Positions 3,262 to 48,140 of a stretch of 64,000 bases of DNA are shown in pieces. The stretch's first letter is position 1. Each line of letters opens with the position of its first letter. The notes under the pieces are model-generated. The model did not search any database and had not been told where the DNA came from. It saw only the letters and a program-made list of their open reading frames with translations. Location: the NCBI GenBank assembly GCA_963741945.1, contig CAVUKA010000006.1:128001-192000 (forward strand), read 5' to 3'. This stretch comes from an uncultured Gemmatimonadales bacterium (GTDB taxonomy: Bacteria; Gemmatimonadota; Gemmatimonadetes; Longimicrobiales; RSA9). A program made the translations under genes and the position numbers.

Positions 3262-4074
3262 TCAGACCGTGTAGTCGGGCGCCGCCAGGTTCTCCCGGTC
3301 CACCCGCTCCACCCCCGGCACGCCGGAGGCCACCTCGATCACTGCGTCCACAAGCGACGGAGGCCGGAGCCGCCCTCGCACGTACACCACACCGTCCCGC
3401 GCCCGCAGCCTTACCTCCGCCGGGAACGTCCGCTCGTCCGCGGCCAGCGCCGCCTGGACCCGGCTCGCCAGCACCAGGTCCGCCATGGACCGCTGGCTCT
3501 CGACCGTCGGCTCAAAGCGGGGGGAGCGGGACGCCAGGACCACCAGCGCCACGGCATCTTCCATGGCCAGCGTCCGCACACTGATGCACAGGTCGTACAG
3601 GCGCGGATCCAGCCAGTCCACGCCATAGAGGAAGCGCGTCCATTTCTCCCGCTGACGGTCCAGCTTCTTGATCCGCGCCTCCGCCTCGGCCTCGGTCAGA
3701 TCCGACCGCTCCTTCAGGACCCGGTCACGGAAGTCCACCGGCGCGATCAGGCGGACCCGTACCACGTGCGCCACCCCGGGCAGCAGGAGGTGCCCCGCGT
3801 TGCCGTGATACACCACGCCGTCTGCCTGCGCCCGCTCCGTCAGCGCCGCCTGGACGTACGCCAGGTATCGCCGCCGCTCGTGCTGCACCCGGTCCCACAG
3901 CCGGGGTGGCTCGAGCAGCGCCTTCCGGAGCTCCTCCTCCGACGCGCCGAAGCGCGTGGCCTCGTGCACCACCTCCTCCCGGCTGACCACGTCATAGCCG
4001 AGCTCCTTCGCCACCGCTTCGGCGAGAACCCGCCCGCCGCTCCCCGAGCCCCTCGATATCGTTACGATCGCCAT
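3262..4074 (-). CDS. Cytidylate kinase-like family protein with C-terminal BON domain
   Basis: N-terminal IVTISRGSGSGGRVLA, VVYHGNAGHLLL, VRLIAP, YGVDWLDPRLYDLCI; BON-like tail DGVVYVRG..VPGVERV. Confidence 0.8.
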   Translation of the reverse strand: MAIVTISRGSGSGGRVLAEAVAKELGYDVVSREEVVHEATRFGASEEELRKALLEPPRLWDRVQHERRRYLAYVQAALTERAQADGVVYHGNAGHLLLPGVAHVVRVRLIAPVDFRDRVLKERSDLTEAEAEARIKKLDRQREKWTRFLYGVDWLDPRLYDLCISVRTLAMEDAVALVVLASRSPRFEPTVESQRSMADLVLASRVQAALAADERTFPAEVRLRARDGVVYVRGRLRPPSLVDAVIEVASGVPGVERVDRENLAAPDYTV

Positions 4075-4092
4075 GGATTCGCTTCGGTCCTG

Positions 4093-4767
4093 TCAGGATG
4101 AGAACGCCGTGACATCACGGGCGGGCTCCGCGTCCTCCGACGCCCGCACCAGCGCGCTCAGCCGCTTCATGCGGGTGTGCGCGCCGTAGTAGCCCTGCCC
4201 CGCCCAGACGATGACGACGAGACTCGCCAGCGCGAGCCCGCCGTCGAACAGCGTCCACCAGTTGAGCCCGAAATACCGGAACAGCGAGATCCCCAGCGCC
4301 AGGAACGCCAATCCCGTCCGGATGAACGCCAGGTACGTCCGGCCCCACGCCAGCTCCGTCCGCAGCGCGGAAAGGTGCGTCCGCCGCTGCGCATACCGCG
4401 TCCTCCCCTCCGCCAGGCCATTCCGCGCGGCCGCCAGATCCGTACGTCGGCGCGACAGCCCCGTCCGCTGTCCCGCCAGGTTCGTCCTCGCCCGCGCCAT
4501 GTCCGTGCGATGAACGGACAGGTCCGTTCGCTGACCGGCGAGCCCTGTCCGCTCCCGGCTCAGCTCGGTCCGGAGATTCCCCAGCTCCGTGCTGCGCGTC
4601 GACAGCCGCGTCTGCTCCCGCGTCAGCGCCGTCCGCTCCGACGCCATGTCCGTCCGCTGGCGGGAGTACCCGCTTTCCACCTGCTCCAGGTCCACCGACC
4701 GGGACACCAGACTCCGGATCGCCTCCAGCGTCTCCTGCGTCGGCGCCTCCCCCGCTGTCTTCGTCAT
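4093..4767 (-). CDS. DUF202/YidH-like membrane protein with long N-terminal heptad-repeat coiled coil
   Basis: RTELAWGRTYLAFIRTGL motif followed by two hydrophobic helices; ATG at 4767 with GAGGAG upstream. Confidence 0.75.
   Translation of the reverse strand: MTKTAGEAPTQETLEAIRSLVSRSVDLEQVESGYSRQRTDMASERTALTREQTRLSTRSTELGNLRTELSRERTGLAGQRTDLSVHRTDMARARTNLAGQRTGLSRRRTDLAAARNGLAEGRTRYAQRRTHLSALRTELAWGRTYLAFIRTGLAFLALGISLFRYFGLNWWTLFDGGLALASLVVIVWAGQGYYGAHTRMKRLSALVRASEDAEPARDVTAFSS
4309..4656 (-). repeat. Degenerate 21-nt / 7-aa tandem repeat (RTxLxxx), 16 units plus a partial one
   Basis: RTDMASE RTALTRE QTRLSTR STELGNL RTELSRE RTGLAGQ RTDLSVH RTDMARA RTNLAGQ RTGLSRR RTDLAAA RNGLAEG RTRYAQR RTHLSAL RTELAWG RTYLAFI RTGL. 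Confidence 0.85.
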
Positions 4768-4793
4768 GACGCGCCTCTCCTCAGCACCCGGCT

Positions 4794-5612
4794 TCACGAC
4801 TCCGCCAGCAACACCGGAGCATATCCGGGCTCGTAGGCGACCTCCCGATCGCCCGCCACTCGCCGGGCCACCTCCAGGACCTGCTCCCTCCGGGCGTCGT
4901 CCAGGTATGGCCCGGTGACCGTGATCCTTCCCTCCGCCACACGCGCCCCCGCTTCCACCTCCGCCGTCCCCGGATCCGAGACCAGCGCCGCTTCCACATG
5001 GCTCCCCAGCAGCAGCGAGTCCAGCTCCGCCCTGGACTCCGCCGTGGCCTGGCTCCCAGGATCCTCCGCCAGCGCGCAGATCACGTGTGCCGCCGTCTCC
5101 ACGCTCGTCCGACTCAGGTCCAGGCACACATCGTACTGCCCCGGATCCCGGATGTCCTTCCCGTACATCAATCTCGCCCACCGCACACGCGCCTCGTCAT
5201 CCCGCGCAATGTACTCCCGCGCCTCCTCCTCCGAGCACGACAGCCGCGCCATGGTCATCGAAACCCGCAGCGGAAGCGACGCATTGATCCGCACCCGCCG
5301 GAAATGGGCGATGCGTGGCACCAGCAGGTGACCGGAAAAACCGTGGTAGATGAGGTCCGCCTCCCGCGCGTACTCCAGGAGCGCCGTACGCATCAGGACC
5401 ACGTACGGACGCCGTAGCTCGCAGAACTCGTCATAGTCCTGCGTGGCCTTCCCCAGCCGCTCCACGATCCGCTGCGCCAGCTCGCCATGCCGGTTCACCA
5501 CCGCCACCAGGTCCTCGCGCGAGACGCAGCGCCACCCCGTGCACTCCGCCAGACGGCCCACCAGCAGGCGAACGCCCGACATGGTTCCCCGGGAGATCAG
5601 GAGTACGGACAA
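4794..5612 (-). CDS. Cytidylate kinase-like family protein with C-terminal BON domain
   Basis: LLISRGTMSG, LIYHGFSGHLLV, MYGKDIRDPGQYDVCL; probable TTG start at 5612 preceded by GGAGG. Confidence 0.78.
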   Translation of the reverse strand: MSVLLISRGTMSGVRLLVGRLAECTGWRCVSREDLVAVVNRHGELAQRIVERLGKATQDYDEFCELRRPYVVLMRTALLEYAREADLIYHGFSGHLLVPRIAHFRRVRINASLPLRVSMTMARLSCSEEEAREYIARDDEARVRWARLMYGKDIRDPGQYDVCLDLSRTSVETAAHVICALAEDPGSQATAESRAELDSLLLGSHVEAALVSDPGTAEVEAGARVAEGRITVTGPYLDDARREQVLEVARRVAGDREVAYEPGYAPVLLAES

Positions 5613-5711
5613 TGACGCAGCCTCCAACACACGCACGCGGAGCCAGGCCGATCCGGTCGGCGCGCGCCCCGAATGCCACCCGCTCTTTCCAGGTTGCCGG
5701 CGGCGCCGGCA

Positions 5712-6231: not shown

Positions 6232-6278
6232 GGCTCGCCTCCTTGCTCTGCGGTACGTCGCTGCCACCCGGTCCGCCA

Positions 6279-6813: not shown

Positions 6814-7953
6814 TCATCCCTTCGTGTGGTCCTGCCCGTCAGCCCCATCGGCCGGTTCGGCGGCCGCGTGGTCGGGCAGCGAGTCGCGAGGCAGCTCGAT
6901 GCGGAACACCGATCCTTCGCCCTCCTTCGACGTGAAGGAGATGCTGCCGCCGTGCTGGTGCACGATGCGGCGGGTGGTCAGCAGGCCGAGGCCCGTGCCC
7001 CGGTCCGAGCCCTTGGTCGTGAAGAACTTGGAGAACACTTTCCGGCTCAGCTCGTAGTCCATCCCCTTGCCGTTGTCGGCGACCTCGTAGACCAGGACGC
7101 CGTCCTCCTCGGAGACGGAGAGGCGGACGACGAATTCCCGCTGCTTCTCGGCCACCGTGCACGCGTCAATGGCGTTGGACACCAGGTTGGCGAGGCAGGT
7201 GTGGATCCCCGCCTCGTCCAGCAGCGCGGGGGCGATGCCGTCCTGCGGCTCGAAGTCGAGGCGGATGCCGGCGCGCGCGGCGCCGTCGCGGAAGAGGTCG
7301 GCGGCGTTCCTCGCCGGCAGCACGGGGTCGGTGAGTGCCACGACGGCCGGGCGTCCCTTGGCGAAGTCCAGGAACTCCTTGATGAAGGCGGAGATCCGGT
7401 TGACGTTCTGCTCCAGTGTGGTCCAGCCGCGAGCAATGCGCTCGTCGTCGCCGAGCTGGATGCCGGTATTCACGGCGTACATGCCGCCCTCGAGGCCCAT
7501 CAGGATGTTCTTCACGCCGTGGGCGACGCCGGCCACGGTCTCGCCTACGGCGGCGAGGCGCTCGGCTTCGCGCTTCTCACGCTCGAGGCGCTTTACGGCG
7601 GTGATGTCGGTGGACATCTCGATGACGTAGGGGATGTCGCCGTTGGGGCGGACCAGGGGTACCATGTGGACCAGGTAGTCGATCTCCCTGCCGTTCCCCA
7701 CCACGCCCTCCTCCTCCTGCTCCCGGATGGAGCCATCGGCAAACGTGGCGAGGGCGGCGCAGCGGAGGCAGGGCTCATCGCGCCCCTTGTGGACCTGATA
7801 ACAGGGGCGCCCCTGCCAGTCGCCGAACTCCGCCTCGAACGCCAGGTTCGCGTCCACGATCCCGTAGTTGCGACCGATGACGCTGATGGCCACCGGCACT
7901 TCGTCGTAGAGGTGGGCGTGGAGCCAGTCGCGGATCTCCGTGGTGTCCATCAT
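6814..7953 (-). CDS. Cytoplasmic PAS-domain histidine kinase
   Basis: H-box VAHGVKNIL, N-box NLVSNAIDA, DNGKGM, FFTTKG, GTGLGL; PAS with CYQVHKGRDEPCLRC; ATGA overlap with upstream gene. Confidence 0.92.
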   Translation of the reverse strand: MMDTTEIRDWLHAHLYDEVPVAISVIGRNYGIVDANLAFEAEFGDWQGRPCYQVHKGRDEPCLRCAALATFADGSIREQEEEGVVGNGREIDYLVHMVPLVRPNGDIPYVIEMSTDITAVKRLEREKREAERLAAVGETVAGVAHGVKNILMGLEGGMYAVNTGIQLGDDERIARGWTTLEQNVNRISAFIKEFLDFAKGRPAVVALTDPVLPARNAADLFRDGAARAGIRLDFEPQDGIAPALLDEAGIHTCLANLVSNAIDACTVAEKQREFVVRLSVSEEDGVLVYEVADNGKGMDYELSRKVFSKFFTTKGSDRGTGLGLLTTRRIVHQHGGSISFTSKEGEGSVFRIELPRDSLPDHAAAEPADGADGQDHTKG

Positions 7954-10007
7954 GGCAGCGACCCTCCTCCCCCGCTGGCCGGCGCGCGCGCGGCGGCCGT
8001 TCCCGCCACGGCGCGGGCGGCTTCCCCTGCCTGGCGGGCTGGCGCAAGCTCCTTCAGGCGGGCTCGACGATCCGCATCGTGGCACGTCTCACAGCGGGCC
8101 AGGTGCTCCGGGTGCTCGGCGGGAGCGTTCCGGACCTCGTCCTCGTGGCACTTCACGCACAGGCCGTGCATCGCGTCCATGTAGCCGGGTGCCGGGCGCC
8201 AGCGGGCATCCGCGGCGGGGATGATCCGGCTCTCGCCGGCGTCGCCGCCGTGGCATTCGCTGCACGCCGTGGCGGTGGCGTAGGTCTTGGTGGCCACGCC
8301 GGGGACGTGGCACTGGGCGCAGCCGTCGTCGCCCTGGAGCGCGGCCACGTGGGCCGCGTGGTCGAAGACCCCGGTGCTGTCGAACATGTCCCGGTGGCAG
8401 GCGGCGCAGCGGCTGGCGCGTTCCAGCGGGAGGTTGAGGTGGTGGCACGTGCCGCACGCCTGCTCGCCGCCGGTACGCTCGATGTGGGCGTCGTGGTCGA
8501 ACAGCACGGCGTTGCCGTCCCGGTCCCCATCCACGAGCAGGAGCATCGCTTCACGGGCGCGGGCGCTCCCCCCCGGGCCCTCCCCTGCGGATGCGCCCTC
8601 GACCGCGGCCACGGCCGACACGGGGGAGGAAGCCTCCTCGCCCACCCCGACCAGCGCCAGCGCCCTCCGGGCGCCGGGCCGCTCCAGGACCACGCCGGCC
8701 ACGGCGCGGGCATCCGTCACGGGGGCGGGCTTCGCCCGGGGCCCGGCCAGCGGCAGGAAGAGGAGCGCCACGGCGAACGCCACCACCGCGGCGGCGCTGT
8801 TCCTCCGGGGGCCGCCCAGGCGCGCCGGGAGCAGCCCGTGGACGGTGCCCGGGTCGAAGCTCCGGGGCCGTGCCCGGACGGTGTCGGTGGACACGTCGTC
8901 GTATACGTGCAGGTGCTCGGCGAAGAAGATGAAGACCAGCATGGCGCCGGCCACGATCCCAGCGCTGACCGCGAACTCCTCCCAGCTGGGGAAGTACGAC
9001 ATCCCCGCCGGCCGGGCGAACGCCAGCACGGAGACGTCGAGGCGGTAGAGGATCATCCCGGCCACGGTCATGGTGGCGGCAATGCCCACGCCCCGGATCG
9101 TGCGGCGGACCGCGGGGATGGCCATGAGCACCACGGGCACGCCCGCGCTCAGCGCCAGCTCGGCGACGAACAGCGCGCCGTGCCAGGAGGGGCGGAGCGC
9201 GCTCGTGAGGATGCCCCGGGCAGCCAGGTCCCCCAGGCGCAGGGCGAGGTAGAGGGAGAGCACCACGGCGGCGGCGGCGCCCAGCCCGGACATCTGGCGC
9301 GGGTGCAGCTCGTGGCCGAGAAAGCGTCGTGCGAACAGGGACTCCACCACCACCATGGAAAGCCCGAGGGCGACGGCGGAGACGAAGAAGAGCACGTAGA
9401 TGATCGGCGAGTACCAGAGCGGGTGCAGCCGGTAGGGCATGATCAGGAAGAGGGATCCCAACGACGACTGGTGCAGCGTGGACAGCATGATCCCGAGAAT
9501 GACCAGCGGGATCGTGGCCTTCCGGAGCACTCTCAGGGCGGCGCGGAACCCGCGCCAGCGGAAGAGCGGGTGCTCGAGGATCGCGGGGGCGAACTCGAGC
9601 CCGAGCACGGTGAGGTAGAGCATGACGCACATGGCCACTTCGAACAGCACGGAATGGTGCTGCCAGTGCACGAGCGGGTGCCAGATGCGCCACGGTAGGC
9701 CGAGGTCGTAGAGCAGCCCCACCGCCACGGCCACGTAGCCGAGGAACGCCGTAAGCACGGCGGGCCGGGCGAACGCGTGGTAGCGCTCAAGGTGGAAGAT
9801 GTAGACGGTGGCCGCCATGACGAAGCCGCCGGCGGCCAGCGCCACGCCGGACATGACGTCGAAGCCGATCCAGAGCCCCCACGGGGTGCCGTCGGAGAGA
9901 TGGGTCACGGCGCCGAGGCCGCGGGTGTAGCGCACCACGCTCACGGCCACGAGGACCCCCACGAGCGTCCACAGGACCAGCTTCAGCCGCGCCAGCCGCT
10001 CACGCAT
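7950..10007 (-). CDS. NrfD/HybB/HmcC-family membrane subunit fused to a hexaheme cytochrome c3-like domain
   Basis: PWGLWIGFDVMSGVALAAGGF, DLGLPWRIWHP, SVLFEVAMCV, LSTLHQSSLGSL, YFPSWEE; C-terminal CGTCH, CAACH, CAQCH, CSECH, CVKCH, CETCH; ATG 10007 with GGAGG. Confidence 0.9.
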   Translation of the reverse strand: MRERLARLKLVLWTLVGVLVAVSVVRYTRGLGAVTHLSDGTPWGLWIGFDVMSGVALAAGGFVMAATVYIFHLERYHAFARPAVLTAFLGYVAVAVGLLYDLGLPWRIWHPLVHWQHHSVLFEVAMCVMLYLTVLGLEFAPAILEHPLFRWRGFRAALRVLRKATIPLVILGIMLSTLHQSSLGSLFLIMPYRLHPLWYSPIIYVLFFVSAVALGLSMVVVESLFARRFLGHELHPRQMSGLGAAAAVVLSLYLALRLGDLAARGILTSALRPSWHGALFVAELALSAGVPVVLMAIPAVRRTIRGVGIAATMTVAGMILYRLDVSVLAFARPAGMSYFPSWEEFAVSAGIVAGAMLVFIFFAEHLHVYDDVSTDTVRARPRSFDPGTVHGLLPARLGGPRRNSAAAVVAFAVALLFLPLAGPRAKPAPVTDARAVAGVVLERPGARRALALVGVGEEASSPVSAVAAVEGASAGEGPGGSARAREAMLLLVDGDRDGNAVLFDHDAHIERTGGEQACGTCHHLNLPLERASRCAACHRDMFDSTGVFDHAAHVAALQGDDGCAQCHVPGVATKTYATATACSECHGGDAGESRIIPAADARWRPAPGYMDAMHGLCVKCHEDEVRNAPAEHPEHLARCETCHDADRRARLKELAPARQAGEAARAVAGTAAARAPASGGGGSLP

Positions 10008-10797
10008 GATCACCTCCCTCGGAGCCGGGCGCCGCGTGCACGTCCGCCGCTTCCGCCGCCCGCTGCATGCGACGCTGGATTACCCAGTAGACCCCGCCCA
10101 TGACCGTCCCCATCCCCAGGAACACGCCGGGCACCTTCTCCAGCGACGCCCAGGAGAGGAGCGGGAGCGGGCCGTCGCCCACGTGGCCACCCCATCCGAG
10201 GAAGCCGAGGGAAGCGTCGGAGATGTAGAGCACCGACGTGCCGCCCACTTCCTTCTCGCCCCACACGTGGTCGATGTAACGCTCGGGCGCGGCGGCAATG
10301 CGGGCGTGGGCCTCCCGCAGCACGTCGTCCCGGGAGCCGAAGTGGAGCGCCTTCTCCGGGCACGCCTCCACGCATGCCGGCTCCTTCCCCTCCTTCAGTC
10401 GCGGATAGCACATCTCGCACTTCCGCACGTAGGGCACGGCCTCGTCCCAGTCGTAGCGGGGAATCCCGTACGGGCAGGCCACCATGCAGTAGCGGCAGCC
10501 GATGCAGAGCGAGGAGTCGTAGAGCACCGGCCCTTCCGGCGACTTCTGCATGGCCCCCACCAGGCACGCGCTCACGCACGCCGGCTCCAGGCAATGGCGG
10601 CACTGCTGCTTCACGTACAGGTCGCCCGGGCGCCGGAGCACGGTGGAGAAGCGGCGAGCGGACAGGTCGTCCACCGCTTCCTGCCCGGGCCCCATGCCGT
10701 CGGGCGGAAGGTGGTTTTCCTCCTTGCACGCCACCACGCACGTCTCGCAGCCGACGCAGCGCGTGGTGTCCACCAGGATGGCAGGCGAGCGGATCAT
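10000..10797 (-). CDS. 4x[4Fe-4S] electron-transfer subunit (HybA/HmcB/FdnH-like) with C-terminal membrane anchor
   Basis: CVGCETCVVAC, CRHCLEPACVSAC, CIGCRYCMVACP, CEMC..PACVEACP, GEKEVGGTSVLY; TM VPGVFLGMGTVMGGVYWVI. Confidence 0.9.
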   Translation of the reverse strand: MIRSPAILVDTTRCVGCETCVVACKEENHLPPDGMGPGQEAVDDLSARRFSTVLRRPGDLYVKQQCRHCLEPACVSACLVGAMQKSPEGPVLYDSSLCIGCRYCMVACPYGIPRYDWDEAVPYVRKCEMCYPRLKEGKEPACVEACPEKALHFGSRDDVLREAHARIAAAPERYIDHVWGEKEVGGTSVLYISDASLGFLGWGGHVGDGPLPLLSWASLEKVPGVFLGMGTVMGGVYWVIQRRMQRAAEAADVHAAPGSEGGDHA

Positions 10798-11495
10798 ATC
10801 GGTTCACCCTCCTTCCCCAGCGCGGCGCCGACGCGGGCCCCGGCATCCCGGGGCCAGTGCCAGGCCGCTTCCGACACCAGCTGGGCCAGGGGCAGCAGGA
10901 ACATGTGGCTGAGCTTGCTTACGGGGACGAGCAGGAAGAGCAGGTCCCCGGCGAGCACGTGAGCGAGGAAGACCGGCTGGAACGCGAAGGGGTTCCACGC
11001 CGGGTGCATGGTCATGAAGCCCGTGGCGAACGTGGCGGCGATCATGACCGGGAGCGCGTAGTCCTGGAAGCGCCCCAGGGCGCGGGCGGCCCGGATCGTC
11101 GCCCGCTGGATGATGACAGCGAGGGCCGCGACCACCACGACCGTGGTGAGGACGGTGGCCACAGCGTTCGGCAGTGCGGGCCAGGACAGGCCGATGGCGC
11201 GCTCCCAGAGCGCGATGTGACCGGCCAGGAAGAGCGGCACCGCGATCACCGCCAGATGGAAGACCATGGTGGTGACGCTGTACGGCCAGCGCCGCAGCAG
11301 CCGGCGGGTGGGGAAAAGCCAGCCCGCCGTGGTCGCCGCCACCGTGCGGCCCGGGAACTTCCTGTCGCCCGCCAGGCGACGCACCCGGGCCAGCTCCCAC
11401 GCCACCAGGGCGAGCTCCCGGAGCAGCCCCAGGACCATGAACGCCAGCGCCGCCCAGAAGAGCGGTCCGCGGGCCCAGCTCAGCCATGCCTCCAT
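10794..11495 (-). CDS. NarI-like diheme cytochrome b (HmcE/TmcC-like)
   Basis: WLSWARGPLF, FHLAVIAVPLFLAGH, AHVLAG..VSKLSH; four His in TM helices. Confidence 0.8.
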   Translation of the reverse strand: MEAWLSWARGPLFWAALAFMVLGLLRELALVAWELARVRRLAGDRKFPGRTVAATTAGWLFPTRRLLRRWPYSVTTMVFHLAVIAVPLFLAGHIALWERAIGLSWPALPNAVATVLTTVVVVAALAVIIQRATIRAARALGRFQDYALPVMIAATFATGFMTMHPAWNPFAFQPVFLAHVLAGDLLFLLVPVSKLSHMFLLPLAQLVSEAAWHWPRDAGARVGAALGKEGEPI

Positions 11496-11498
11496 GGG

Positions 11499-37603: not shown

Positions 37604-37852
37604 ATGGCTGTCACCACTGAACAGGTCGCCGACGCCATGTACCAGCTGGTGAGCGAGTACCAGGGCAAGAAGAAGTTCAAGGCCCTGGACCTCACCAAGG
37701 CGATGAAGGAGAAGTTCGGCGCGGACGCCGACCGGAACACGTGCAAGGACGCGATCCGAAGCCTGATCGACTCGGGTCGCTGCGTCTACACGTATTTCGG
37801 TGGCAGCTACATCGAGGTCCCGCACAAGGAAGGGGCTGCCGAGGGCGCCTGA
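37604..37852 (+). CDS. dsrD: DsrD winged-helix protein
   Basis: 82-aa basic protein directly after dsrB with AGGAGG RBS; GKKKFKALDL..KDAIRSLIDSG..Y..GGSY. Confidence 0.85.
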   Translation: MAVTTEQVADAMYQLVSEYQGKKKFKALDLTKAMKEKFGADADRNTCKDAIRSLIDSGRCVYTYFGGSYIEVPHKEGAAEGA

Positions 37853-41090: not shown

Positions 41091-41744
41091 ATGGCCATCA
41101 TCACAATCTCTCGTGGATCCCTCAGCGGAGGGCGCACCGTGGCCGAGTGCTTGGCGGAGCGCCTCGGCTATCCGTGCGTGGCGCACGAAGTGCTCCGGGG
41201 GGCGGCCCGGAAGCTCGGTCTGGCGGAGGACGTCGTCCGGGACAAGTTCGAGACACCGCCCGGACTCTGGTCCCGGCTGAGCCGCGACCGGGAGATCTAC
41301 CTCCTGGCGGTGAAGACGGCGCTCGCCGACAAGTGCCGGGACGGGTGCCTGGTCTATCACGGCCCCGCGGGCCAGTTCTTCCTGGCCGGCCTCCCGGGCG
41401 TTCTTGCCGTTCGGCTCATTGCGCCGCTGCAGCAGCGGGTCCGGGCGTTGACGGGCCCACACCACCGCCTCGCGCGGAAGGCCGCGCTCGAATTCATCGA
41501 GAACGTCGACGAGGAGCGGCGCCGGTGGGCCCGGTTGATGTTCAACGCGGACGTCGAGGACCCGGGCCTCTACGACCTCACGGTGAACCAGCGCTTCCTC
41601 TCCGTGGAGACGGCGTGTGTGGCCATCGCCGAGGCCGCGGGGCAGCCCGAGCTCCAGGTCACGGAGGACGTGCTGTCGGACCTTGCTTCATTCGCGACCG
41701 CATGCCACGAGCAGCTGGACGCGCTGCTGGACGGGGAGGAGTGA
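41091..41744 (+). CDS. Cytidylate kinase-like family protein (no BON)
   Basis: MAIITISRGSLSGGRTVA, LVYHGPAGQFFL, VRLIAP, DPGLYDLTVN. Confidence 0.8.
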   Translation: MAIITISRGSLSGGRTVAECLAERLGYPCVAHEVLRGAARKLGLAEDVVRDKFETPPGLWSRLSRDREIYLLAVKTALADKCRDGCLVYHGPAGQFFLAGLPGVLAVRLIAPLQQRVRALTGPHHRLARKAALEFIENVDEERRRWARLMFNADVEDPGLYDLTVNQRFLSVETACVAIAEAAGQPELQVTEDVLSDLASFATACHEQLDALLDGEE

Positions 41745-41748: not shown

Positions 41749-42567
41749 ATGGCCATCATCGCCATCTGTCGCGGCACGAAGAGCGGTGGGGCGGCCATGG
41801 CCGAGTGCCTGGCCAATGGCCTCGACTATCCGGTCCTGGGCCGCGAGGTCGTGCAGGATGCGGCCGCGGAGCTGGGCGTCCCGGCCCAGCTCCTCGAACA
41901 GCGCATGGATGCGCGGCCCACGCTGTGGAGCCGGTTCTCCAATCTGAGGCGCACCTACATGGTGGCCATTCAGGCCGCCATGGCGGAGTACGCCGTGGAG
42001 GGCGACCTGGTCTACCACGGCCTCGCCGGCGGGCTCCTGCTGCGCGGCCTTCCCGCCACGCTCTGGCTCCGGCTCATCGCGCCGATGCGTTATCGGAAGC
42101 GGGTGGTCATGGGCGAGTCGGACATGGATGACGCGCTGGCGGAATCCTACATCCGCGAGATGGACGAGACCCGTGCTCGCTGGGTGAAGGTGATGTACGG
42201 CGAGGACATTGGAGATCCGGACCTTTTCGACATGGTGGTCAGCCTGGACAAGCTGACCATCGACGGTGCCTGCTCGGTGGTGGTGAAGACGGTCGAACAG
42301 CCCGAGTACACGATCACGGACGAGATCCGGTCCCGGCTGCTGAACTTCCGGACGGCGTGCCGGGTGAAGCTGGCGCTGGTCCGGGACAGCGAGCTGCGCA
42401 GCCTCGAACTCGACGCCCGCGTCGAGGACGGTGCTGTGGTGATCACGGGGGAAGCGCCCCTCATGAAGGGTGGACGGACGGGGAACCGCATGGTCGACCT
42501 CGCACGATCGGTACAGGGCGTGGAGGAGGTCCGGCTCAAGGTGGAGTGGTTCGACCCGTATCCGTAG
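41749..42567 (+). CDS. Cytidylate kinase-like family protein with BON domain
   Basis: MAIIAICRGTKSGG, LVYHGLAGGLLL, RLIAP, MYGEDIGDPDLFD; BON tail DGAVVITG..VQGVEEV. Confidence 0.8.
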   Translation: MAIIAICRGTKSGGAAMAECLANGLDYPVLGREVVQDAAAELGVPAQLLEQRMDARPTLWSRFSNLRRTYMVAIQAAMAEYAVEGDLVYHGLAGGLLLRGLPATLWLRLIAPMRYRKRVVMGESDMDDALAESYIREMDETRARWVKVMYGEDIGDPDLFDMVVSLDKLTIDGACSVVVKTVEQPEYTITDEIRSRLLNFRTACRVKLALVRDSELRSLELDARVEDGAVVITGEAPLMKGGRTGNRMVDLARSVQGVEEVRLKVEWFDPYP

Positions 42568-42623: not shown

Positions 42624-43619
42624 ATGCACCAGCGCTTCGTTTGCGCCGCCGGCAGTGTGATTCCACTCACGCTCCTGCTCCTCCTGTGCCTGTGCGCGCC
42701 CGCCGTGGCGCAGCACGCGACGCCGGATGCTGCCGAGATGGCCGGCATGGAGGCGGCCATCAGCGACCACGTCTGGTGGTTCTGGCCCGCCGTTCTCTTC
42801 GGGATGACCTTCGTGATGGGGATCCTGGCGGCGGTGGCGGGCGTGGGTGGCGGCGTCCTGTTCGTGCCCATCGTGAGTGGATTCTGCCCGTTCCACCTGG
42901 ACTTCGTCCGCGGGACGGGGCTGCTGGTGGCCATGTCGGGAGCCCTTGCGGCGGGACCCGGGTTCCTGCGGATGAACCTGGCGAGCCTTCGCCTGGCCAT
43001 GCCCGTGGCGCTCATCGCGTCTGCGTGCGCCATAGCCGGTGCGATGGTGGGGCTGGCGCTCCCCACCAACGTGGTGCAGACGGCGCTCGGCGCGTCGATC
43101 CTGGGGATCGTGGTGATCATGATCCGGGCGAAGAAATCGGCATTCCCCGTGGTCCCCCGGGCGGACCGGCTGTCCACGGCTCTGGGCATTTCCGGTGTGT
43201 ACATGGAGGCGAGCCTGGGCCGCGAAGTGGACTGGAAGATCCACCGGACCCTCCCGGGTTTGATCCTGTTCATCCTCATCGGGTTCATGGCCGGCATGTT
43301 CGGGCTCGGCGCCGGGTGGGCCAACGTCCCCGTGCTGAACCTGCTGCTGGGCGCCCCACTCAAGGTGAGCGTGGCCACGAGCAAGTTCCTCCTCTCCATC
43401 ACGGACACGTCCGCCGCCTGGATCTATCTGAATCAGGGGTGCGTGATCCCGCTGCTCGTGGTCCCGTCGCTCGTGGGAATCATGCTCGGGTCGTTCGTGG
43501 GCGTGCGGGTCCTCAAGGTGGCGAAGCCGGCGTTCGTGCGGTGGATGGTCATCGCGCTCCTGATCTTCTCGGGGGCGAAGGCGATGACGAAGGGGCTCGG
43601 ACTCCCGTTCTTCTTCTGA
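42624..43619 (+). CDS. TauE/SafE (TSUP) family transporter
   Basis: GILAAVAGVGGGVLFVP, GMFGLGAGWANVP, PLKVSVATS; signal-peptide-like N terminus; AGGAG RBS. Confidence 0.88.
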   Translation: MHQRFVCAAGSVIPLTLLLLLCLCAPAVAQHATPDAAEMAGMEAAISDHVWWFWPAVLFGMTFVMGILAAVAGVGGGVLFVPIVSGFCPFHLDFVRGTGLLVAMSGALAAGPGFLRMNLASLRLAMPVALIASACAIAGAMVGLALPTNVVQTALGASILGIVVIMIRAKKSAFPVVPRADRLSTALGISGVYMEASLGREVDWKIHRTLPGLILFILIGFMAGMFGLGAGWANVPVLNLLLGAPLKVSVATSKFLLSITDTSAAWIYLNQGCVIPLLVVPSLVGIMLGSFVGVRVLKVAKPAFVRWMVIALLIFSGAKAMTKGLGLPFFF

Positions 43620-43644
43620 CCTGGTCGATGGTGGAGGTGTGGAA

Positions 43645-44094
43645 ATGAGCGAACAGGCGAGCGGGGCTCGACCCTCGGAGGAACAGCGGCTCTATGCCAC
43701 CATCCTGGCTGCCGGGATGTACACGGGGCTGGGTCTGCTGCTTCTGACCTTCGCGCTCTACATCTTCGGGGTCGTGGAGCCGGCCGTCCCCATCGACCGC
43801 CTCGAGACGTACTGGACGCTGAGCGTCGACCGGTTCAACGAGGTGATCAACGCCGAGTACCTGCATCGGGAGCACGGGCTCACCGGCTGGTGGTGGCTCT
43901 CCGCGTTGGGGCGGGGCGACTACCTGAACCTGGTGGGAATCGCGGTGCTGTCGGGCGTCACGGTGATCTCCTTCATCGGCATCATCCCGGTCCTCATCCG
44001 GAAGCGGGACTGGGTCTATGCCGCCATCGCCGTGGTCGAGGTACTCATCCTCGTTCTGGCGGCCAGCGGCATCCTGGCCGTGGGCGGGCATTGA
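43645..44094 (+). CDS. DUF1634-like membrane protein (TSUP-associated)
   Basis: EQRLYATIL, GWWWL..GDYLNLVGIAVL, EVLILVLAASG; three TM segments. Confidence 0.7.
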   Translation: MSEQASGARPSEEQRLYATILAAGMYTGLGLLLLTFALYIFGVVEPAVPIDRLETYWTLSVDRFNEVINAEYLHREHGLTGWWWLSALGRGDYLNLVGIAVLSGVTVISFIGIIPVLIRKRDWVYAAIAVVEVLILVLAASGILAVGGH

Positions 44095-44976: not shown

Positions 44977-46533
44977 ATGATCACCCCGGCTCGCCCGAAA
45001 CCCGGAACGGTGTACCTCGTCGGAGCGGGACCGGGGCATCCGGGACTGCTCACGCTGCGGGCCGTGGAATGCCTGAAGAAGGCGGACCTGGTCATGTACG
45101 ACTACCTGGCGAACGCGTCGCTCGTCGAGCACGCGCGCCCGGATGCCGAGCTCATGCGGCTCGGTCACCACAACGGCGGCCCGCGTCTCTCGCCGAGCGA
45201 GATCATCTCGCTGATGGTGGAGGAAGCCCTGAAAGGGCGGTCCGTGGTCCGCCTGAAAGGCGGGGACCCGAGCATCTTCGCTCGTGGCGGCGACGAGGCG
45301 ACCGCGCTCCGCGACGCGGGCGTCCCCTTCGAGATCGTACCCGGCATCACGTCCGGCCTGGCACTGGCCGCGTTCGCCGAGATCCCGCTCACCCATTTCG
45401 AGGACGCGTCCGCAGTGGCGCTCGTCACCGGGCGGGAGCGGAACGCAAAGCTTGAAAACGACGACTGCCACCTGGACTATGCCGGCCTGGCGTCGTTTCC
45501 CGGCACCCTCGTGTTCTACATGGCCGTGAAAGGCACGCAGGCGTGGAGCAGCGCGCTCATGGAGGAGGGCAAGTCACCGGACACGCCCGTGGGCATCGTG
45601 CGCTGGTGCAGCCGGGCGTGGCAGCAGACCGTCCGCTGCACGCTGGGCACGGTGGCAGAGGTCGTGGAGACGCACGGGCTCCGTCCGCCCTGCCTGTTCG
45701 TGGTGGGGAAGGTCGTCGACCGCACGCCTCGCCTGAGCTGGTTCGAGTCGCGGCCCCTGTTCGGATCCACGGTCCTCGTGGCAGGCTCGGCCAGCAGCGC
45801 GGGCCGCCTGCGCGAGCGGCTGGCGGAAACAGGGGCGGAAGTGATCATGCAGCCGGCGATCCGGGTCACGCCGCCGCCTACGTGGGTGCCCGTGGACGAT
45901 ACGCTTGAGCGCATTGACGACTACCAGTGGCTGGTCTTCTCCACGCCGAACGCCGTGGACGCGCTCATGGACCATATCGATGCCCGGGGCGGCGACGCGC
46001 GCTGGCTGGGCCGCGTGCGCATCGTCGCGCTCGGGTCGGGCACGGTGGACCGGCTGCGGGCGCGCCAGATCCGCCCCGACCTGACCCCCGACGGCTACCA
46101 GCCTGCCGTGCTGGCCCGGACGCTGACGGCGGCGGGGCCGACCCGCGTGCTCCTGGCACGCTCCAATGGTGAACGGCCGGTCCTGGCCGCGGAGCTGGAA
46201 GCGGCGGGCGCGAGGGTGGGCGAGATCGTCGTCTACGCGACGGCTGAAGTGGACGAGCCGGACCCGGACGTGGCGCTCTCGCTGGCTGAAGACGAGCTGG
46301 ACTGGGTGGCCGTGACCAGCCCGGCCACGGCCCGATCGCTGGACCGGCTGTACGGGAGCGCACTGCGCCGCGCGCGCATCGCCTCCATCAGTCCCCTCAC
46401 TTCGGAAGCACTGCGTGAGCTGGGGCTGGAACCGGACGTGGAAGCCGCCCCGGCCAGCGTGGCGGGGCTCGTGGACGCCATAGCCGCGGCGGTGCCCCGC
46501 GTGGCCGTCGCCGAGACCGCAGGAGTTCCGTAA
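44977..46533 (+). CDS. cobA: Uroporphyrinogen-III C-methyltransferase / uroporphyrinogen-III synthase fusion (CobA-HemD)
   Basis: VYLVGAGPG, VVRLKGGDPSIFARGGDE, VPGITS, WFESRPLFG; HemD-like WLVFSTPNAV, VTSPAT. Confidence 0.9.
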   Translation: MITPARPKPGTVYLVGAGPGHPGLLTLRAVECLKKADLVMYDYLANASLVEHARPDAELMRLGHHNGGPRLSPSEIISLMVEEALKGRSVVRLKGGDPSIFARGGDEATALRDAGVPFEIVPGITSGLALAAFAEIPLTHFEDASAVALVTGRERNAKLENDDCHLDYAGLASFPGTLVFYMAVKGTQAWSSALMEEGKSPDTPVGIVRWCSRAWQQTVRCTLGTVAEVVETHGLRPPCLFVVGKVVDRTPRLSWFESRPLFGSTVLVAGSASSAGRLRERLAETGAEVIMQPAIRVTPPPTWVPVDDTLERIDDYQWLVFSTPNAVDALMDHIDARGGDARWLGRVRIVALGSGTVDRLRARQIRPDLTPDGYQPAVLARTLTAAGPTRVLLARSNGERPVLAAELEAAGARVGEIVVYATAEVDEPDPDVALSLAEDELDWVAVTSPATARSLDRLYGSALRRARIASISPLTSEALRELGLEPDVEAAPASVAGLVDAIAAAVPRVAVAETAGVP

Positions 46534-48140
46534 TGCAGATCGTCTGCGTATCCAGGGGATCGCTCGCAGCGGGCCGTGAGCTGGCCGATACCCTCGCCGC
46601 CAAGCTGGGCTATCCCGTCCTGAGCCGGGAGAAGCTGATCGAGGAAGCGACGCACGAGGGCATCCAGGTCGGGAAGCTCGAGACGGCCATGATGAACCCC
46701 CGGGCGTTCAACGAGCGCCTCGCCCGGGAGCGGGATCACTACCTGGCCTTCTGCACCGCGTACCTGTGCGACCGGCTGGAGGAGGGCCCGCTGGTCTATC
46801 ACGGGCGCACCGGCCACCTCCTGCTGCGCGGGATCAGCCACGTCATGCGCGTTCGCGTGGTGGCCGATGAGGAGTACCGCATCGCCAGCGTGATGCGCGA
46901 GCTCGGCATCGAGCGGGAGAAGGCGCGGGCATACCTCAAGGCCGTGGAAGAGGACCGGCGCAACTGGACGCGGGCGATGTACGGGGTCTCCTCGGAGGAG
47001 GCCGAGCAGTACGACGTGGTGGTGAACATCGAGCGGATGAGCGTCGGCAATGCCGCCGCTTCGCTCGTCGACATGTGCCAGCTCCCGGACTTCCAGGCGA
47101 CACCGGCATCCCGGCGCGCCATGGAGGACCTGCGCCTCTCGGCGCGCGCCCGGCTGATGCTGGCCCGCGACCCGCGCACCAACCGCTTCGGGTTCTCCGT
47201 GGGCGCGCACGACGGCGTGCTCACGGTCACTTACCTGCCCCACGATGCGGAGGTGGCACCGCACATCGAGCCCGTCCTCCAGCCGCTCGCCGGCGTGGAC
47301 GAGATCCGGGCCACCATGGCGGCCACCACCATCCTCTGGGTCCAGGAGTCGTTCGACCCGGCCTCGGACACGTTCCGCGACGTGGTGGAGATCGCGGGGA
47401 AGTGGAACGCGGCGGTGGAGCTCGTACGCTACACGCCGGACAAGCCATCGGAGTCGAGGCTCGACGTCGAGTCCGTGGCCACCGCCGCTCCGGCAGGAAC
47501 GGGCGCCCCCGCACCGGTGAGTGCTGGAGTCGCCGCGGGCGAAGGCGGGACGGCCATGGCCGGAGCCGTGGCCGTCGCTCCGCCGGCCATCACGACGCCT
47601 CCCGGCGGCATCGAGGAGGACGACGACGAGGAGCCCGCGCTGGATGAGGGACTGAAGGCCACGCTCGACGCGCTGGCCCGGCTCGGGCGGGCCGGCGGCG
47701 CCCGTCACGTGCATGGCACGCGAGGCAGTCTGGTCGCCTCGTGCTGCGGCGGCGTTCCGCACTCGATGGTCGTTCTCGGCGACCTGTTCCTGGGGAGCCC
47801 GCATGCGGCGAGGCTGCGGCTCACGCGCGAGCTGCGCGGCTCCATCACGGAACGGGTGAAAGTGCCCGTGGTGACCGCGGACGAGCTGCGCACGCAGTAC
47901 CTGTTCGGCCGCCGTGACCTGTTCCGTCTGCTCGGGTGGGTGGCCCTCGTCCTCCTGCTGTTCATCGTGGTCTTCACCAACCAGGACGCGGTGATCCAGT
48001 TCCTGTCGGGCGGCGAGGAAGAGCGGAGCCGCGTGATGAGGCTGCTGGTGGCCGCCGCGGTGTTCGCGTTCGTGCCGATCGTCGCCTACTCCTACGGGAC
48101 GGTGGCACGGCTGGTCATGAAGCTGATCCGGATGGAGTAG
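46533..48140 (+). CDS. Membrane-anchored cytidylate kinase-like + BON multidomain protein
   Basis: IVCVSRGSLAAG, LVYHGRTGHLLL, MYG..YDVVVN; BON-like DGVLTV..LAGVDEI; Ala/Pro linker; two C-terminal TM helices. Confidence 0.75.
   Translation: MQIVCVSRGSLAAGRELADTLAAKLGYPVLSREKLIEEATHEGIQVGKLETAMMNPRAFNERLARERDHYLAFCTAYLCDRLEEGPLVYHGRTGHLLLRGISHVMRVRVVADEEYRIASVMRELGIEREKARAYLKAVEEDRRNWTRAMYGVSSEEAEQYDVVVNIERMSVGNAAASLVDMCQLPDFQATPASRRAMEDLRLSARARLMLARDPRTNRFGFSVGAHDGVLTVTYLPHDAEVAPHIEPVLQPLAGVDEIRATMAATTILWVQESFDPASDTFRDVVEIAGKWNAAVELVRYTPDKPSESRLDVESVATAAPAGTGAPAPVSAGVAAGEGGTAMAGAVAVAPPAITTPPGGIEEDDDEEPALDEGLKATLDALARLGRAGGARHVHGTRGSLVASCCGGVPHSMVVLGDLFLGSPHAARLRLTRELRGSITERVKVPVVTADELRTQYLFGRRDLFRLLGWVALVLLLFIVVFTNQDAVIQFLSGGEEERSRVMRLLVAAAVFAFVPIVAYSYGTVARLVMKLIRME

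What the first reader, a model, noticed from the sequence alone, without database searches (positions are those of the whole stretch)
3262..48140. Five paralogous cytidylate-kinase-like proteins (four with BON) flanking the sulfate-reduction island
Seen: paralogues at 3262-4074, 4794-5612, 41091-41744, 41749-42567, 46533-48140 share (I/V)(S/C)RGxxxG, VYHG and Y/FD motifs. None has the Walker A Lys (GxxxxGK[ST]) and none has a signal peptide, so the BON domains are cytoplasmic. They sit next to membrane proteins (DUF202, two TSUPs), dsrN and siroheme genes; one is TM-anchored and one operon has a Rex-like box. Inference: a nucleotide-sensing (AMP/ADP/APS?) pseudo-kinase family that regulates sulfate/sulfite transporters. 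I know of no described function; best candidate for an undescribed system here.
Basis: partly seen in the sequence, partly recalled or inferred. Interest (0 to 1): 0.78.

Follow-up and report, generated by a model that had tools for sequence, protein, structure and literature searches.

The report
Kinase-like partners of TauE membrane transporters
Five related genes around a sulfate-reduction gene island encode catalytically doubtful, kinase-shaped proteins that almost always sit beside TauE-type anion transporters and an unusual ATP-driven phosphotransfer enzyme, which points to an undescribed control module for sulfur-anion transport.

Summary
All five ORFs are paralogues (33-36% identity) that match Pfam Cytidylate_kin2. 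None has the Walker-A lysine and all carry YHG at residue 89. Four have a BON or BON-like tail, and one ends in two membrane helices.

They belong to a large unstudied family: 988 clusters at E<=1e-30, all carrying only automatic names. In 79 related loci from at least nine phyla, the gene lies within 10 kb of a TauE transporter in 61. Among loci with full flanks, each count is 38 of 41.

Sulfur-energy genes are nearby in only 16 of those 41, so the link to sulfur is real but secondary. Each paralogue clade has its own partner: DUF202, TauE, or response regulator plus dikinase.

A controlled complex prediction supports binding of the membrane-anchored paralogue to its adjacent TauE (score 0.67, best control 0.01).

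Most likely these are membrane-attached accessory or regulatory subunits of anion transporters inside a two-component and dikinase signalling module. Nucleotide sensing is plausible but untested. I found no described function in the literature.

The parts
2..2836 (+). PEP-synthase-like dikinase. It has an ATP-grasp domain (PPDK_N), a swivel-His domain (PEP-utilizers), a conserved ~280-aa domain of unknown fold, and a C-terminal receiver. The 5' end is cut by the window edge.
   Evidence: Pfam hits. It falls below the NCBIfam PEP synthase cutoffs. The full-length orthologue in L006 is 1002 aa. The C-domain is conserved in 78 dikinase ORFs of the loci. That domain has no Pfam hit and no Foldseek PDB hit at E<=0.001.
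2883..3257 (+). Single-domain response regulator (receiver only), convergent on CK-BON1.
   Evidence: Pfam Response_reg, E 4e-26. A relative lies within 1.2 kb of 26 of 33 non-window CK1-clade genes.
3262..4074 (-). CK-BON1: lysine-less NMP-kinase-fold domain plus BON domain, 270 aa.
   Evidence: AF2 model with pLDDT 89. Nearest structures are 3fdi and 3hdt. The 119 other listed homologues are 57-86% identical.
4096..4773 (-). DUF202-type membrane protein with a run of 17 'RTxLxxx' heptads before its first membrane helix.
   Evidence: Pfam DUF202 at 22.5 bits, cutoff 23.4. Heptad run. Conserved directly downstream of CK2-clade genes.
4794..5612 (-). CK-BON2, 272 aa, TTG start with a GGAGG ribosome-binding site.
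   Evidence: The CK2 clade has 14 rows.
41091..41744 (+). CK3: kinase-like domain only, no BON, 217 aa, directly after dsrN.
   Evidence: It groups with CK4 on a long branch, SH-aLRT 98.
41749..42567 (+). CK-BON4, 272 aa, upstream of TauE1.
   Evidence: Atlas look-alike clusters are auto-named 'BON/Cytidylate kinase-like'.
42624..43619 (+). TauE1, a TSUP/TauE-family permease.
   Evidence: Pfam TauE, E 8e-35.
43639..44094 (+). Small membrane protein, weakly DUF1634-like.
   Evidence: Pfam DUF1634 at 16.5 bits, below its cutoff of 27.5. Hydrophobic sequence.
46533..48140 (+). CK5, 535 aa: kinase-like domain, BON-like segment, a further conserved segment, a variable linker, a conserved cytoplasmic segment, and two C-terminal membrane helices.
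   Evidence: The 119 other listed homologues are 50-83% identical and 486-539 aa long. Predicted to bind TauE2 through residues 476-535.
48145..49245 (+). TauE2, a TSUP/TauE-family permease, starting 4 nt after the CK5 stop.
   Evidence: Pfam TauE, E 8e-36. The 120 listed homologues are 70-94% identical. Complex prediction.
49316..49921 (+). Response regulator (receiver domain) following TauE2.
   Evidence: Pfam. The same order CK5-TauE2-RR-HK occurs in L033, L039 and L046.
49931..51475 (+). HAMP-HisKA-HATPase sensor histidine kinase.
   Evidence: Pfam. Relatives at >=100 bits occur in 29 of 79 loci.

Best explanation
The five genes encode members of one large, unstudied branch of the Cytidylate_kin2 family. 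I call it the 'YHG' branch. Each protein has an NMP-kinase-fold domain whose P-loop has lost the catalytic lysine and the Mg-binding Ser/Thr. Several phosphate-binding arginines remain. The domain is followed by a BON or BON-like membrane-binding domain.

The proteins sit on the cytoplasmic face of the membrane. Four are likely held there by BON, and one by two membrane helices of its own. I propose that they are accessory or regulatory subunits of the small membrane proteins encoded next to them: TauE/TSUP anion permeases, DUF202, and in two loci a DASS symporter.

They belong to a conserved signalling module. Its parts are a sensor histidine kinase, receiver-only response regulators, and a PEP-synthase-like His-swivel dikinase that lacks the PEP/pyruvate barrel and carries a domain of unknown fold instead.

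In this genome three such units flank the apr-qmo-sat-dsr island and the siroheme genes. The transported species is therefore most likely sulfate, sulfite or a related sulfur oxyanion, and the module would match its flux to a sensed signal.

What is shown:
- Family membership and the lost lysine.
- The conserved gene neighbourhoods.
- A model-supported CK5-TauE2 interface.

What is inferred:
- The regulatory role.
- The substrate.
- That the kinase-like domain binds a nucleotide or anion rather than catalysing a reaction.
- How the dikinase feeds in.
For: Family and fold:
- PF13189 hits for all five.
- AF2 model with pLDDT 89; the nearest structures are the PF13189 proteins 3fdi and 3hdt, followed by CoaE, CMP, shikimate and adenylate kinases.
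- No Walker-A lysine in any of the five. By regex it appears in 1 of 119 CK1 hits, 0 of 119 CK5 hits and 3 of 150 profile representatives.
- Columns R8, R32 and R108 are nearly invariant, and R116 and R142 are invariant, across 82 sequences.

Size of the family:
- 988 clusters at E<=1e-30, in two length classes of about 270 aa and about 450-520 aa.

Neighbourhood, from 79 loci in at least nine phyla:
- TauE in 61 of 79 loci, within 5 kb in 58.
- Dikinase in 68 of 79.
- Either one in 74 of 79.
- With >=9 kb on both sides: TauE 38 of 41 and dikinase 38 of 41.
- DASS stands in L044 and L058, where no TauE was found.

Clade-specific partners:
- CK2 clade: DUF202 directly downstream in 12 of 13 non-window rows.
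- Acidobacterial clade: TauE directly downstream in 23 of 40.
- CK1 clade: dikinase nearby in 27 of 33 and response regulator in 26 of 33.
- CK5 clade: dikinase directly upstream in 7 of 8.

Complex prediction, TauE2 with CK5:
- Score 0.67, best control 0.01.
- This mark was reached by 116 of 157 solved complexes and 2 of 215 mismatched pairs. The counts hold only roughly here because my own alignments were used.
- The three runs agree in at least 80% of contacts, and the partner's pLDDT is 70-71.
- The interface joins CK5 residues 476-535 to TauE2 residues 7-13, 63-71 and 240-273.
- No solved relative of TauE2 or of the CK5 tail is detectable by sequence, so recall of a known complex is unlikely.

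Sulfur link:
- dsr/apr/qmo/sat within 10 kb in 22 of 79 loci; siroheme genes in 26 of 79.
- A TauE-family protein has been shown to take up sulfate (PMC11535334, passages read).
- In Dissulfuribacter thermophilus, three adjacent genes annotated 'PEP synthase', 'TM protein co-occurring with TauE' and TauE all rise under thiosulfate disproportionation (PMC13490349, passages read). I did not check by sequence that this is the same module.
Against: - No binding or transport experiment exists for any member.
- The complex prediction covers only the TM-anchored paralogue, and its interface is helix-helix packing in the membrane. It says nothing about the BON-only paralogues or about regulation.
- In the CK1 clade, to which the best-conserved window paralogue belongs, the closest neighbours are the response regulator and the dikinase. 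TauE lies 4-5 kb away in the convergent operon.
- Sulfur-energy genes are absent from the 10-kb flanks of 25 of 41 loci with full flanks, so sulfur oxyanions need not be the general substrate.
- The 79 loci were found with motifs of the CK1 family and are phylogenetically related, so the counts are not independent. CK3/CK4-type relatives were not sampled.
- Pfam BON scores for two paralogues are below the cutoff, and one has no hit.
- The conserved arginines and the invariant YHG motif could equally serve catalysis.
Confidence: 0.5

Rival explanations
1. The kinase-like proteins are partners or regulators of the dikinase, not of the transporters. The analogy, which I recall rather than tested, is the P-loop regulatory proteins PSRP/PDRP that switch PEP synthase and PPDK on and off. 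Alternatively they are the dikinase's phospho-acceptor or substrate-presenting subunit. TauE would then be an output, or simply a co-regulated gene.
For: - The dikinase is the most frequent neighbour, in 68 of 79 loci and 38 of 41 with full flanks.
- It lies within 1.2 kb of 27 of 33 non-window CK1-clade genes and directly upstream of 7 of 8 non-window CK5-clade genes.
- The dikinase lacks the PEP/pyruvate barrel and has a conserved domain with no known fold neighbour, so its substrate is open.
- Two conserved histidines (YHGNAGH) sit in the kinase-like domain's active-site region.
Against: - The window's units CK3-CK4-TauE1 and CK5-TauE2 have no dikinase beside them.
- In the acidobacterial clade, a dikinase ORF lies within 1.2 kb of only 5 of 40 genes, while TauE is directly downstream in 23 of 40.
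- The CK2 clade pairs with DUF202.
- CK5 is predicted to pack against TauE2.
Confidence: 0.2
2. They are active small-molecule kinases with a non-canonical P-loop. The arginine at the head of the loop (R8) would replace the lysine. They would act at the membrane on a nucleotide or sulfur-nucleotide such as AMP, CMP or APS.
For: - They have the NMP-kinase fold, with LID and NMP-site arginines conserved.
- Homology to archaeal (d)CMP kinase is detectable, TIGR02173 at E 3e-9.
- R8 is nearly invariant.
- Sulfate activation and APS reduction release AMP, so a local nucleotide kinase would make metabolic sense (established pathway knowledge).
Against: - The Walker-A lysine and the following Ser/Thr are missing in all five and in nearly all relatives.
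- The position of the conserved Asp-Gly-Arg of CMP kinases is His-Gly-x here. This is my reading against kinase motifs that I recalled.
- All five score far below the (d)CMP kinase cutoff, 17-37 bits against 102.
- Five paralogues, each with its own membrane partner, is not the pattern of a housekeeping kinase.
Confidence: 0.15
3. They are general envelope or osmotic-stress proteins, in the manner of the BON proteins OsmY and DolP. Their position beside sulfur genes in this window would be incidental to a gene island.
For: - The BON part hits OsmY (8rjx) and YraP/DolP (7a2d) in the PDB profile search.
- More than half of the full-flank loci show no sulfur-energy gene.
- An OsmC-like gene lies in the island.
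Against: - There is no signal peptide, so unlike OsmY and DolP they are cytoplasmic.
- The association with TauE and the dikinase is far tighter than with any stress gene.
- Sulfur or siroheme genes lie within 10 kb in 35 of 79 loci, across Acidobacteriota, Gemmatimonadota and Binatota.
Confidence: 0.1

Closest known systems
PF13189 Cytidylate_kin2 proteins with solved structures: 3fdi (Eubacterium ventriosum) and 3hdt (Clostridium symbiosum)
   Same: Same Pfam family and same fold. The profile search gives E 4e-15 and 8e-12. Foldseek gives E 2e-9 with TM-scores normalised to the target of 0.78-0.86. They have the same lysine-less P-loop, 'GSGGH' and 'GSGGR' (alignments).
   Different: Those are ~200-aa single-domain structural-genomics proteins with no assigned function, no BON domain and no membrane anchor. 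They carry 'VGR' where the window family has the invariant 'YHG'.
Canonical (d)CMP kinase (Cmk; NCBIfam TIGR02173)
   Same: NMP-kinase fold, with detectable sequence homology across the whole domain.
   Different: The window proteins score 17-37 bits against a cutoff of 102. The Walker-A lysine is absent. They have extra BON or TM modules, and there are five copies with membrane-protein neighbours.
BON-domain proteins OsmY and DolP/YraP
   Same: The C-terminal domain is homologous: Pfam BON and PDB hits 8rjx and 7a2d. DolP's BON domain binds phospholipid, according to the title and abstract of PMC7806268 (seen in the listing). The preprint version lists BON plus PF13189 among eight major BON architectures (one passage read).
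   Different: OsmY and DolP are exported, whereas these proteins have no signal peptide. They carry a single BON fused to a kinase-like domain. No study of this architecture was found.
Cytoplasmic ligand-sensing regulatory subunits of transporters, such as CBS, RCK/TrkA, and PII-like SbtB (recalled, not tested here)
   Same: The proposed logic is the same: a soluble nucleotide-binding module sits at the cytoplasmic face of a transporter encoded next to it.
   Different: The fold differs (P-loop NMP-kinase-like). The membrane attachment by BON or by its own TM hairpin is different. The link to a dikinase and a two-component system is different. Ligand binding has not been shown.
PEP synthase/PPDK with their regulatory proteins, and the PTS Enzyme I phosphorelay (recalled)
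   Same: The neighbouring enzyme has the ATP-grasp and swivel-His domains of PEP synthase. PDB PEP synthases align to residues ~59-510 at E 5e-55. A His-swivel phosphorelay that controls transporters is known in principle from the PTS.
   Different: The PEP/pyruvate-binding barrel is absent. Instead there is a ~280-aa domain with no Pfam or PDB neighbour, plus a receiver domain. It falls below the NCBIfam PEP synthase cutoffs, 294 against 598 and 278 against 740.

Membership tests
Pfam PF13189 Cytidylate_kin2 | Match to the family HMM above the gathering score of 28 bits | tested here: met
   All five match, at 128.8, 73.0, 106.8, 100.6 and 102.7 bits, covering profile positions 1-4 to 173-175 of 176.
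Pfam PF13189 Cytidylate_kin2 | Fold shared with the solved members 3fdi and 3hdt | tested here: met
   In the Foldseek search with the CK-BON1 model, the top three hits are 3fdi_B, 3hdt_A and 3fdi_A, at E 2e-9 to 2e-8. Only CK-BON1 was modelled.
(d)CMP kinase (TIGR02173, equivalog) | Score above the curated cutoff of 102.1 bits | tested here: not met
   Scores are 37.2, 17.0, 33.5, 28.4 and 16.8 bits.
(d)CMP kinase / P-loop NMP kinases | Walker-A motif GxxxxGK[ST] with the catalytic lysine | tested here: not met
   The regex is absent from all five; the loop reads (S/C)RG(S/T)xxxG.
(d)CMP kinase / P-loop NMP kinases | Phosphotransfer activity | not testable with these tools
   This needs an enzyme assay.
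Pfam PF04972 BON | Match above the gathering score of 27 bits | tested here: inconclusive
   CK-BON1 scores 32.1 bits and passes. CK-BON2 (17.6) and CK-BON4 (18.9) are below the cutoff. CK5 has no hit, but it is homologous to CK-BON1 across the BON segment (hhalign, residues 1-258). CK3 lacks the segment.
Pfam PF04972 BON | Phospholipid or membrane binding | not testable with these tools
   Inferred from what is published for DolP. Not measured here.
TauE/SafE (TSUP) permeases, PF01925 | Match above the gathering score of 32.6 bits | tested here: met
   TauE1 scores 121.1 bits and TauE2 124.3 bits. The substrate was not tested.
PEP synthase (TIGR01418 / NF005057) | Score above the curated cutoffs, and presence of the C-terminal PEP/pyruvate-binding domain | tested here: not met
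   Scores are 278 against 739.75 and 294 against 598. The matches end at about residue 510. The following 300 aa have no Pfam hit and no PDB fold neighbour at E<=0.001.
DUF202 (PF02656) | Match above the gathering score of 23.4 bits | tested here: inconclusive
   It scores 22.5 bits at E 1.6e-4, over residues 138-196.

The most novel reading that the evidence does not exclude
The kinase-like proteins, the His-swivel dikinase with its unknown domain, the receiver proteins and the sensor kinase together form an undescribed signalling pathway that gates TSUP/TauE oxyanion transporters. The sensor kinase would set the state of the receiver on the dikinase. The dikinase would use ATP to load its swivel histidine and pass phosphate, or a nucleotide-derived group, to the lysine-less kinase-like subunit or to a ligand held in its arginine-lined pocket. 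That subunit is clamped to the permease by BON or by its own membrane hairpin, and would open or close sulfate/sulfite flux. This would be a new class of transporter control built from a dead kinase fold. It would be a key unrecognised step in dissimilatory sulfur metabolism of Acidobacteriota, Gemmatimonadota and their relatives.
Probability: 0.15. Interest if true: 0.85.

Novelty: new variant of a known kind. Interest (0 to 1): 0.66.

Why it matters
How sulfate enters, and how sulfite or sulfate leaves, the cells of the recently recognised non-classical sulfur-cycling phyla (Acidobacteriota, Gemmatimonadota, Binatota) is poorly known. TauE/TSUP proteins are among the least understood anion transporters.

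This work gives a concrete, testable module:
- a large conserved protein family, annotated only as 'cytidylate kinase', that is probably not a cytidylate kinase;
- a predicted physical partner, TauE;
- a companion dikinase with a domain of unknown fold.

If confirmed, three things would follow. About a thousand sequence clusters would be re-annotated. TSUP transporters would gain their first known accessory subunit. A regulatory layer of dissimilatory sulfur metabolism would become open to experiment.

Tried and rejected
- The search for related loci with the five-paralogue alignment A1 failed because it had no conserved stretch. I used an alignment of 16 CK-BON1 orthologues instead. This biases the loci towards CK1-like genes.
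- one DNA reference contained a stop codon. I corrected the coordinates and repeated the call.
- Rex box: a Rex consensus that I recalled gave a single hit at aprB and none near the CK genes. I dropped it as evidence.
- DsrD: the 82-aa ORF between dsrB and dsrL gave no Pfam DsrD hit. The reductive or oxidative type of the Dsr system was therefore not settled here.
- Dikinase C-domain: no Pfam hit, no Foldseek PDB hit at E<=0.001, and no usable Atlas hit. Its function remains open.
- Tandem Repeats Finder saw no DNA repeat under the DUF202 heptad array.
- Literature: 'cytidylate kinase-like' with 'BON domain' gave 0 papers. 'cytidylate kinase' with dsrAB and Acidobacteria gave 0. TIGR02186/Alph_Pro_TM/PF09608 gave 0. 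'cytidylate kinase' with 'sulfite exporter' gave only an unrelated mention. One search returned noise from 'dsRN...' word starts.
- The supplement of PMC13490349 held as text contained none of the neighbouring locus tags. I could therefore not check whether a kinase-like gene sits beside the Dissulfuribacter module.
- Table S1 of the DolP preprint (bioRxiv supplements are closed) was not seen.
Genome-wide co-occurrence with dsrAB was therefore not computed, and CK3/CK4-type relatives were not sampled.
- Only one complex job was available. CK-BON with DUF202, CK-BON4 with TauE1, and CK-BON1 with the response regulator or dikinase remain untested.

Full report
**The observation**

The window has 68% G+C. 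It carries a complete dissimilatory sulfur island (Pfam and NCBIfam):
- Rex, aprBA, qmoABC and sat;
- dsrC, dsrMKJOP and dsrAB (TIGR02064 and TIGR02066 above their cutoffs);
- a dsrL-like gene and dsrN;
- siroheme genes (sirC/cbiX, cobA/hemD).

All five match Pfam Cytidylate_kin2 well above its cutoff. They are 33-36% identical to the first paralogue. None has a Walker-A lysine, and all five have the tripeptide YHG at exactly residue 89.

Only one BON domain passes Pfam's cutoff. Two are sub-threshold. The 535-aa protein has none by Pfam, yet it is homologous to the first paralogue through the BON segment (hhalign probability 100, E 8e-61 over residues 1-258). The 217-aa protein stops before that segment.

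The P-loop strand begins at residue 3 in all five, so there is no signal peptide. The 535-aa protein ends in two hydrophobic helices that are conserved in its orthologues. The TTG start of the second gene is backed by a GGAGG eight bases upstream.

I could not confirm a Rex-like box near any of these genes.

**What family this is**

By sequence profile and by fold, the nearest solved structures are 3fdi and 3hdt. Both are structural-genomics PF13189 proteins with no function, and both also lack the lysine. Canonical CMP, adenylate, shikimate and dephospho-CoA kinases follow at lower scores. The (d)CMP kinase model is missed by a wide margin. These are therefore not cytidylate kinases in the annotated sense.

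The branch is large. A profile of 82 members finds 988 representative clusters at E<=1e-30. The best 150 fall into a ~270-aa class and a ~450-520-aa class.
- The ~270-aa protein of the window has 119 other listed relatives at 57-86% identity, nearly all exactly 270 aa.
- The 535-aa protein has 119 other listed relatives at 50-83% identity.
- All carry only automatic names, such as 'cytidylate kinase (-like) family protein'. Atlas clusters are auto-named 'BON/Cytidylate kinase-like' and 'Phospholipid-binding protein'.

A preprint on DolP lists BON plus PF13189 as one of eight major BON architectures, without studying it (one passage read). My literature searches found nothing on function.

**Neighbourhoods**

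One scan of species-representative genomes, using motifs of the 270-aa family, returned 79 loci. They come from Acidobacteriota (45), Gemmatimonadota (18), Myxococcota, Ignavibacteriota, Binatota, Thermodesulfobacteriota and others. I compared all six-frame ORFs of these loci with the window's proteins. Counts over all 79 loci:

| Neighbour within 10 kb | Loci of 79 |
|---|---|
| TauE permease | 61 (58 within 5 kb) |
| PPDK_N/PEP-utilizers protein related to window ORF 2-2836 | 68 |
| Either of the two | 74 |
| Small receiver protein | 36 |
| Histidine kinase | 35 |
| Second kinase-like paralogue (CK2-CK5 type, >=100 bits) | 21 |
| DUF202 | 13 |
| Siroheme genes | 26 |
| dsr/apr/qmo/sat genes | 22 |

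Several loci without TauE or the dikinase sit on short contigs. Among the 41 loci with at least 9 kb on both sides, TauE and the dikinase are each present in 38, and sulfur-energy genes in 16.
- In L044 and L058, a DASS symporter lies near the kinase-like gene and no TauE was found.
- Between dikinase and TauE, the Gemmatimonadota-type loci carry an Alph_Pro_TM membrane protein.
- In the window, this first module runs off the 5' edge. Only the dikinase (truncated) and the receiver protein are visible, convergent on the first kinase-like gene.

**Subfamilies**

A tree of 106 kinase-like domains resolves well-supported clades, each with its own context. Counts leave out the window's own rows.

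| Clade | Rows | SH-aLRT | Typical context |
|---|---|---|---|
| CK2 | 14 | 100 | DUF202 directly downstream in 12 of 13; the thirteenth has it under an overlapping ORF call |
| CK1 | 34 | 99 | dikinase within 1.2 kb in 27 of 33; receiver in 26 of 33 |
| CK5 | 9 | 100 | long membrane tail; dikinase directly upstream in 7 of 8; TauE2 directly downstream in 3 of 8 (four others end at the locus edge) |
| Six-member clade | 6 | 100 | receiver directly upstream in 6 of 6 |
| Acidobacterial | 40 | 100 | TauE directly downstream in 23 of 40; cobA/hemD upstream in 19 of 40 |

The window's CK3 and CK4 form their own long branch. Their relatives were not sampled.

**A test of binding**

CK5 stops 4 nt before TauE2 starts. 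Among the listed homologues, 28 CK5 hits share their longest-contig length with a TauE2 hit. I compared these by eye and took them as lying on the same contig. I used them to build row-matched alignments.

The complex prediction gave scores of 0.68, 0.67 and 0.67, against a best control of 0.01.
- This mark was reached by 116 of 157 solved complexes and 2 of 215 mismatched pairs. The counts hold only roughly because my own alignments were used.
- The runs agree in at least 80% of contacts, and the partner's pLDDT is 70-71.
- The confident interface is the C-terminal hairpin and tail of CK5 (476-535) against TauE2 residues 7-13, 63-71 and 240-273.
- No solved relative of either part is detectable by sequence.

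This supports binding but does not prove it. It concerns only the anchored paralogue.

**The dikinase**

Its first ~510 residues align with PEP synthases: PDB E 5e-55 and NCBIfam scores below the cutoffs. The PEP/pyruvate barrel is replaced by a ~280-aa domain. That domain is conserved in 78 dikinase ORFs of the loci, with invariant Cys, His, Asp and Arg columns. It has no Pfam match. Its model (pLDDT 79.6) has no PDB neighbour at E<=0.001. Its acceptor substrate is unknown.

**Interpretation**

The loss of the lysine and of the Ser/Thr after it argues against ordinary phosphotransfer. So does His-Gly-x at the position where, as I recall, CMP kinases have Asp-Gly-Arg. Arginines at the NMP-site and LID positions are retained. 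That fits a pocket which still holds a phosphorylated or sulfated ligand. This is inference, not measurement.

Three features fit cytoplasmic, membrane-attached accessory subunits of small anion permeases:
- the BON or transmembrane tails;
- a one-to-one pairing of each clade with a membrane protein;
- the predicted CK5-TauE2 interface.

The constant company of a sensor kinase, receivers and the dikinase places these proteins in a signalling module.

The position beside apr, qmo, sat, dsr and siroheme genes, here and in a substantial minority of loci, makes sulfur oxyanions the likely cargo in these organisms. Two published results agree with this:
- A TauE homologue has been shown experimentally to take up sulfate (PMC11535334, passages read).
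- Adjacent 'PEP synthase', TauE-associated membrane protein and TauE genes are co-induced under thiosulfate disproportionation in Dissulfuribacter (PMC13490349, passages read; not verified by sequence).

The module's presence without sulfur genes elsewhere warns against a sulfur-only reading.

I put the accessory-subunit model at about 0.5. Three rivals remain open: partners of the dikinase (0.2), unorthodox active kinases (0.15), and general envelope-stress proteins (0.1).

**Verdict**

The finding is real and more than chance. The protein family and its architecture are on record but unstudied. The conserved module and the predicted transporter contact appear not to be in print, according to the searches named above.

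Noticed in passing
window 4096-4773 (-): The DUF202-type protein carries an uninterrupted run of 17 heptads 'RTxLxxx' (residues 40-158) leading into its first membrane helix. Orthologues next to CK2-clade genes in 13 loci keep runs of 4-17 heptads. No DNA tandem repeat underlies it.
   Followed up: partly
window 1541-2440 (+), within ORF 2-2836: The ~280-aa domain after the swivel-His domain of the dikinase is conserved in 78 ORFs of the related loci, with invariant Cys/His/Asp/Arg columns. It has no Pfam hit and no PDB fold neighbour at E<=0.001. Some acidobacterial loci (L044, L055, L058, L068) carry three such dikinase genes.
   Followed up: partly
window 37604-37852 (+): An 82-aa ORF sits between dsrB and the dsrL-like gene, in the place where DsrD usually lies. 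It gave no Pfam DsrD hit, only weak winged-helix hints at E about 0.15.
   Followed up: partly
L044 4562-6139 and L058 12444-14099: In these two acidobacterial loci a DASS (Na_sulph_symp) symporter lies near the kinase-like gene and no TauE was found. It scores 752-760 bits to the window's own DASS gene at 55796-57376.
   Followed up: partly
window 51556-57376 (+): A further signalling block lies directly upstream of a DASS anion symporter: an unassigned 225-aa ORF, a double-receiver protein, a Cache histidine kinase and a receiver. Relatives of these kinase and receiver genes recur in the acidobacterial loci next to dikinase genes.
   Followed up: no
window 7953-12887 (-): A second DsrMKJOP/Hme-like membrane complex. 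It includes an NrfD-type subunit fused to a multihaem cytochrome c domain, a Fer4_11 protein and a CCG-domain protein. A PAS histidine kinase and two receiver genes follow it and lead into the CK-BON2 operon. The same block recurs in L029 and L032.
   Followed up: no
L006 14205-15000 (-) and equivalent gaps in other Gemmatimonadota-type loci: An Alph_Pro_TM (PF09608) membrane protein lies between the dikinase and TauE (E 4e-41). It matches the annotation 'transmembrane protein co-occurring with TauE' reported as induced in Dissulfuribacter.
   Followed up: partly
L059 8570-9553 and 9872-10804: Two kinase-like genes of the acidobacterial clade stand in tandem.
   Followed up: no
window 28694-29080 (+): An OsmC-like peroxiredoxin-type gene sits between sat and dsrC.
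   Followed up: no
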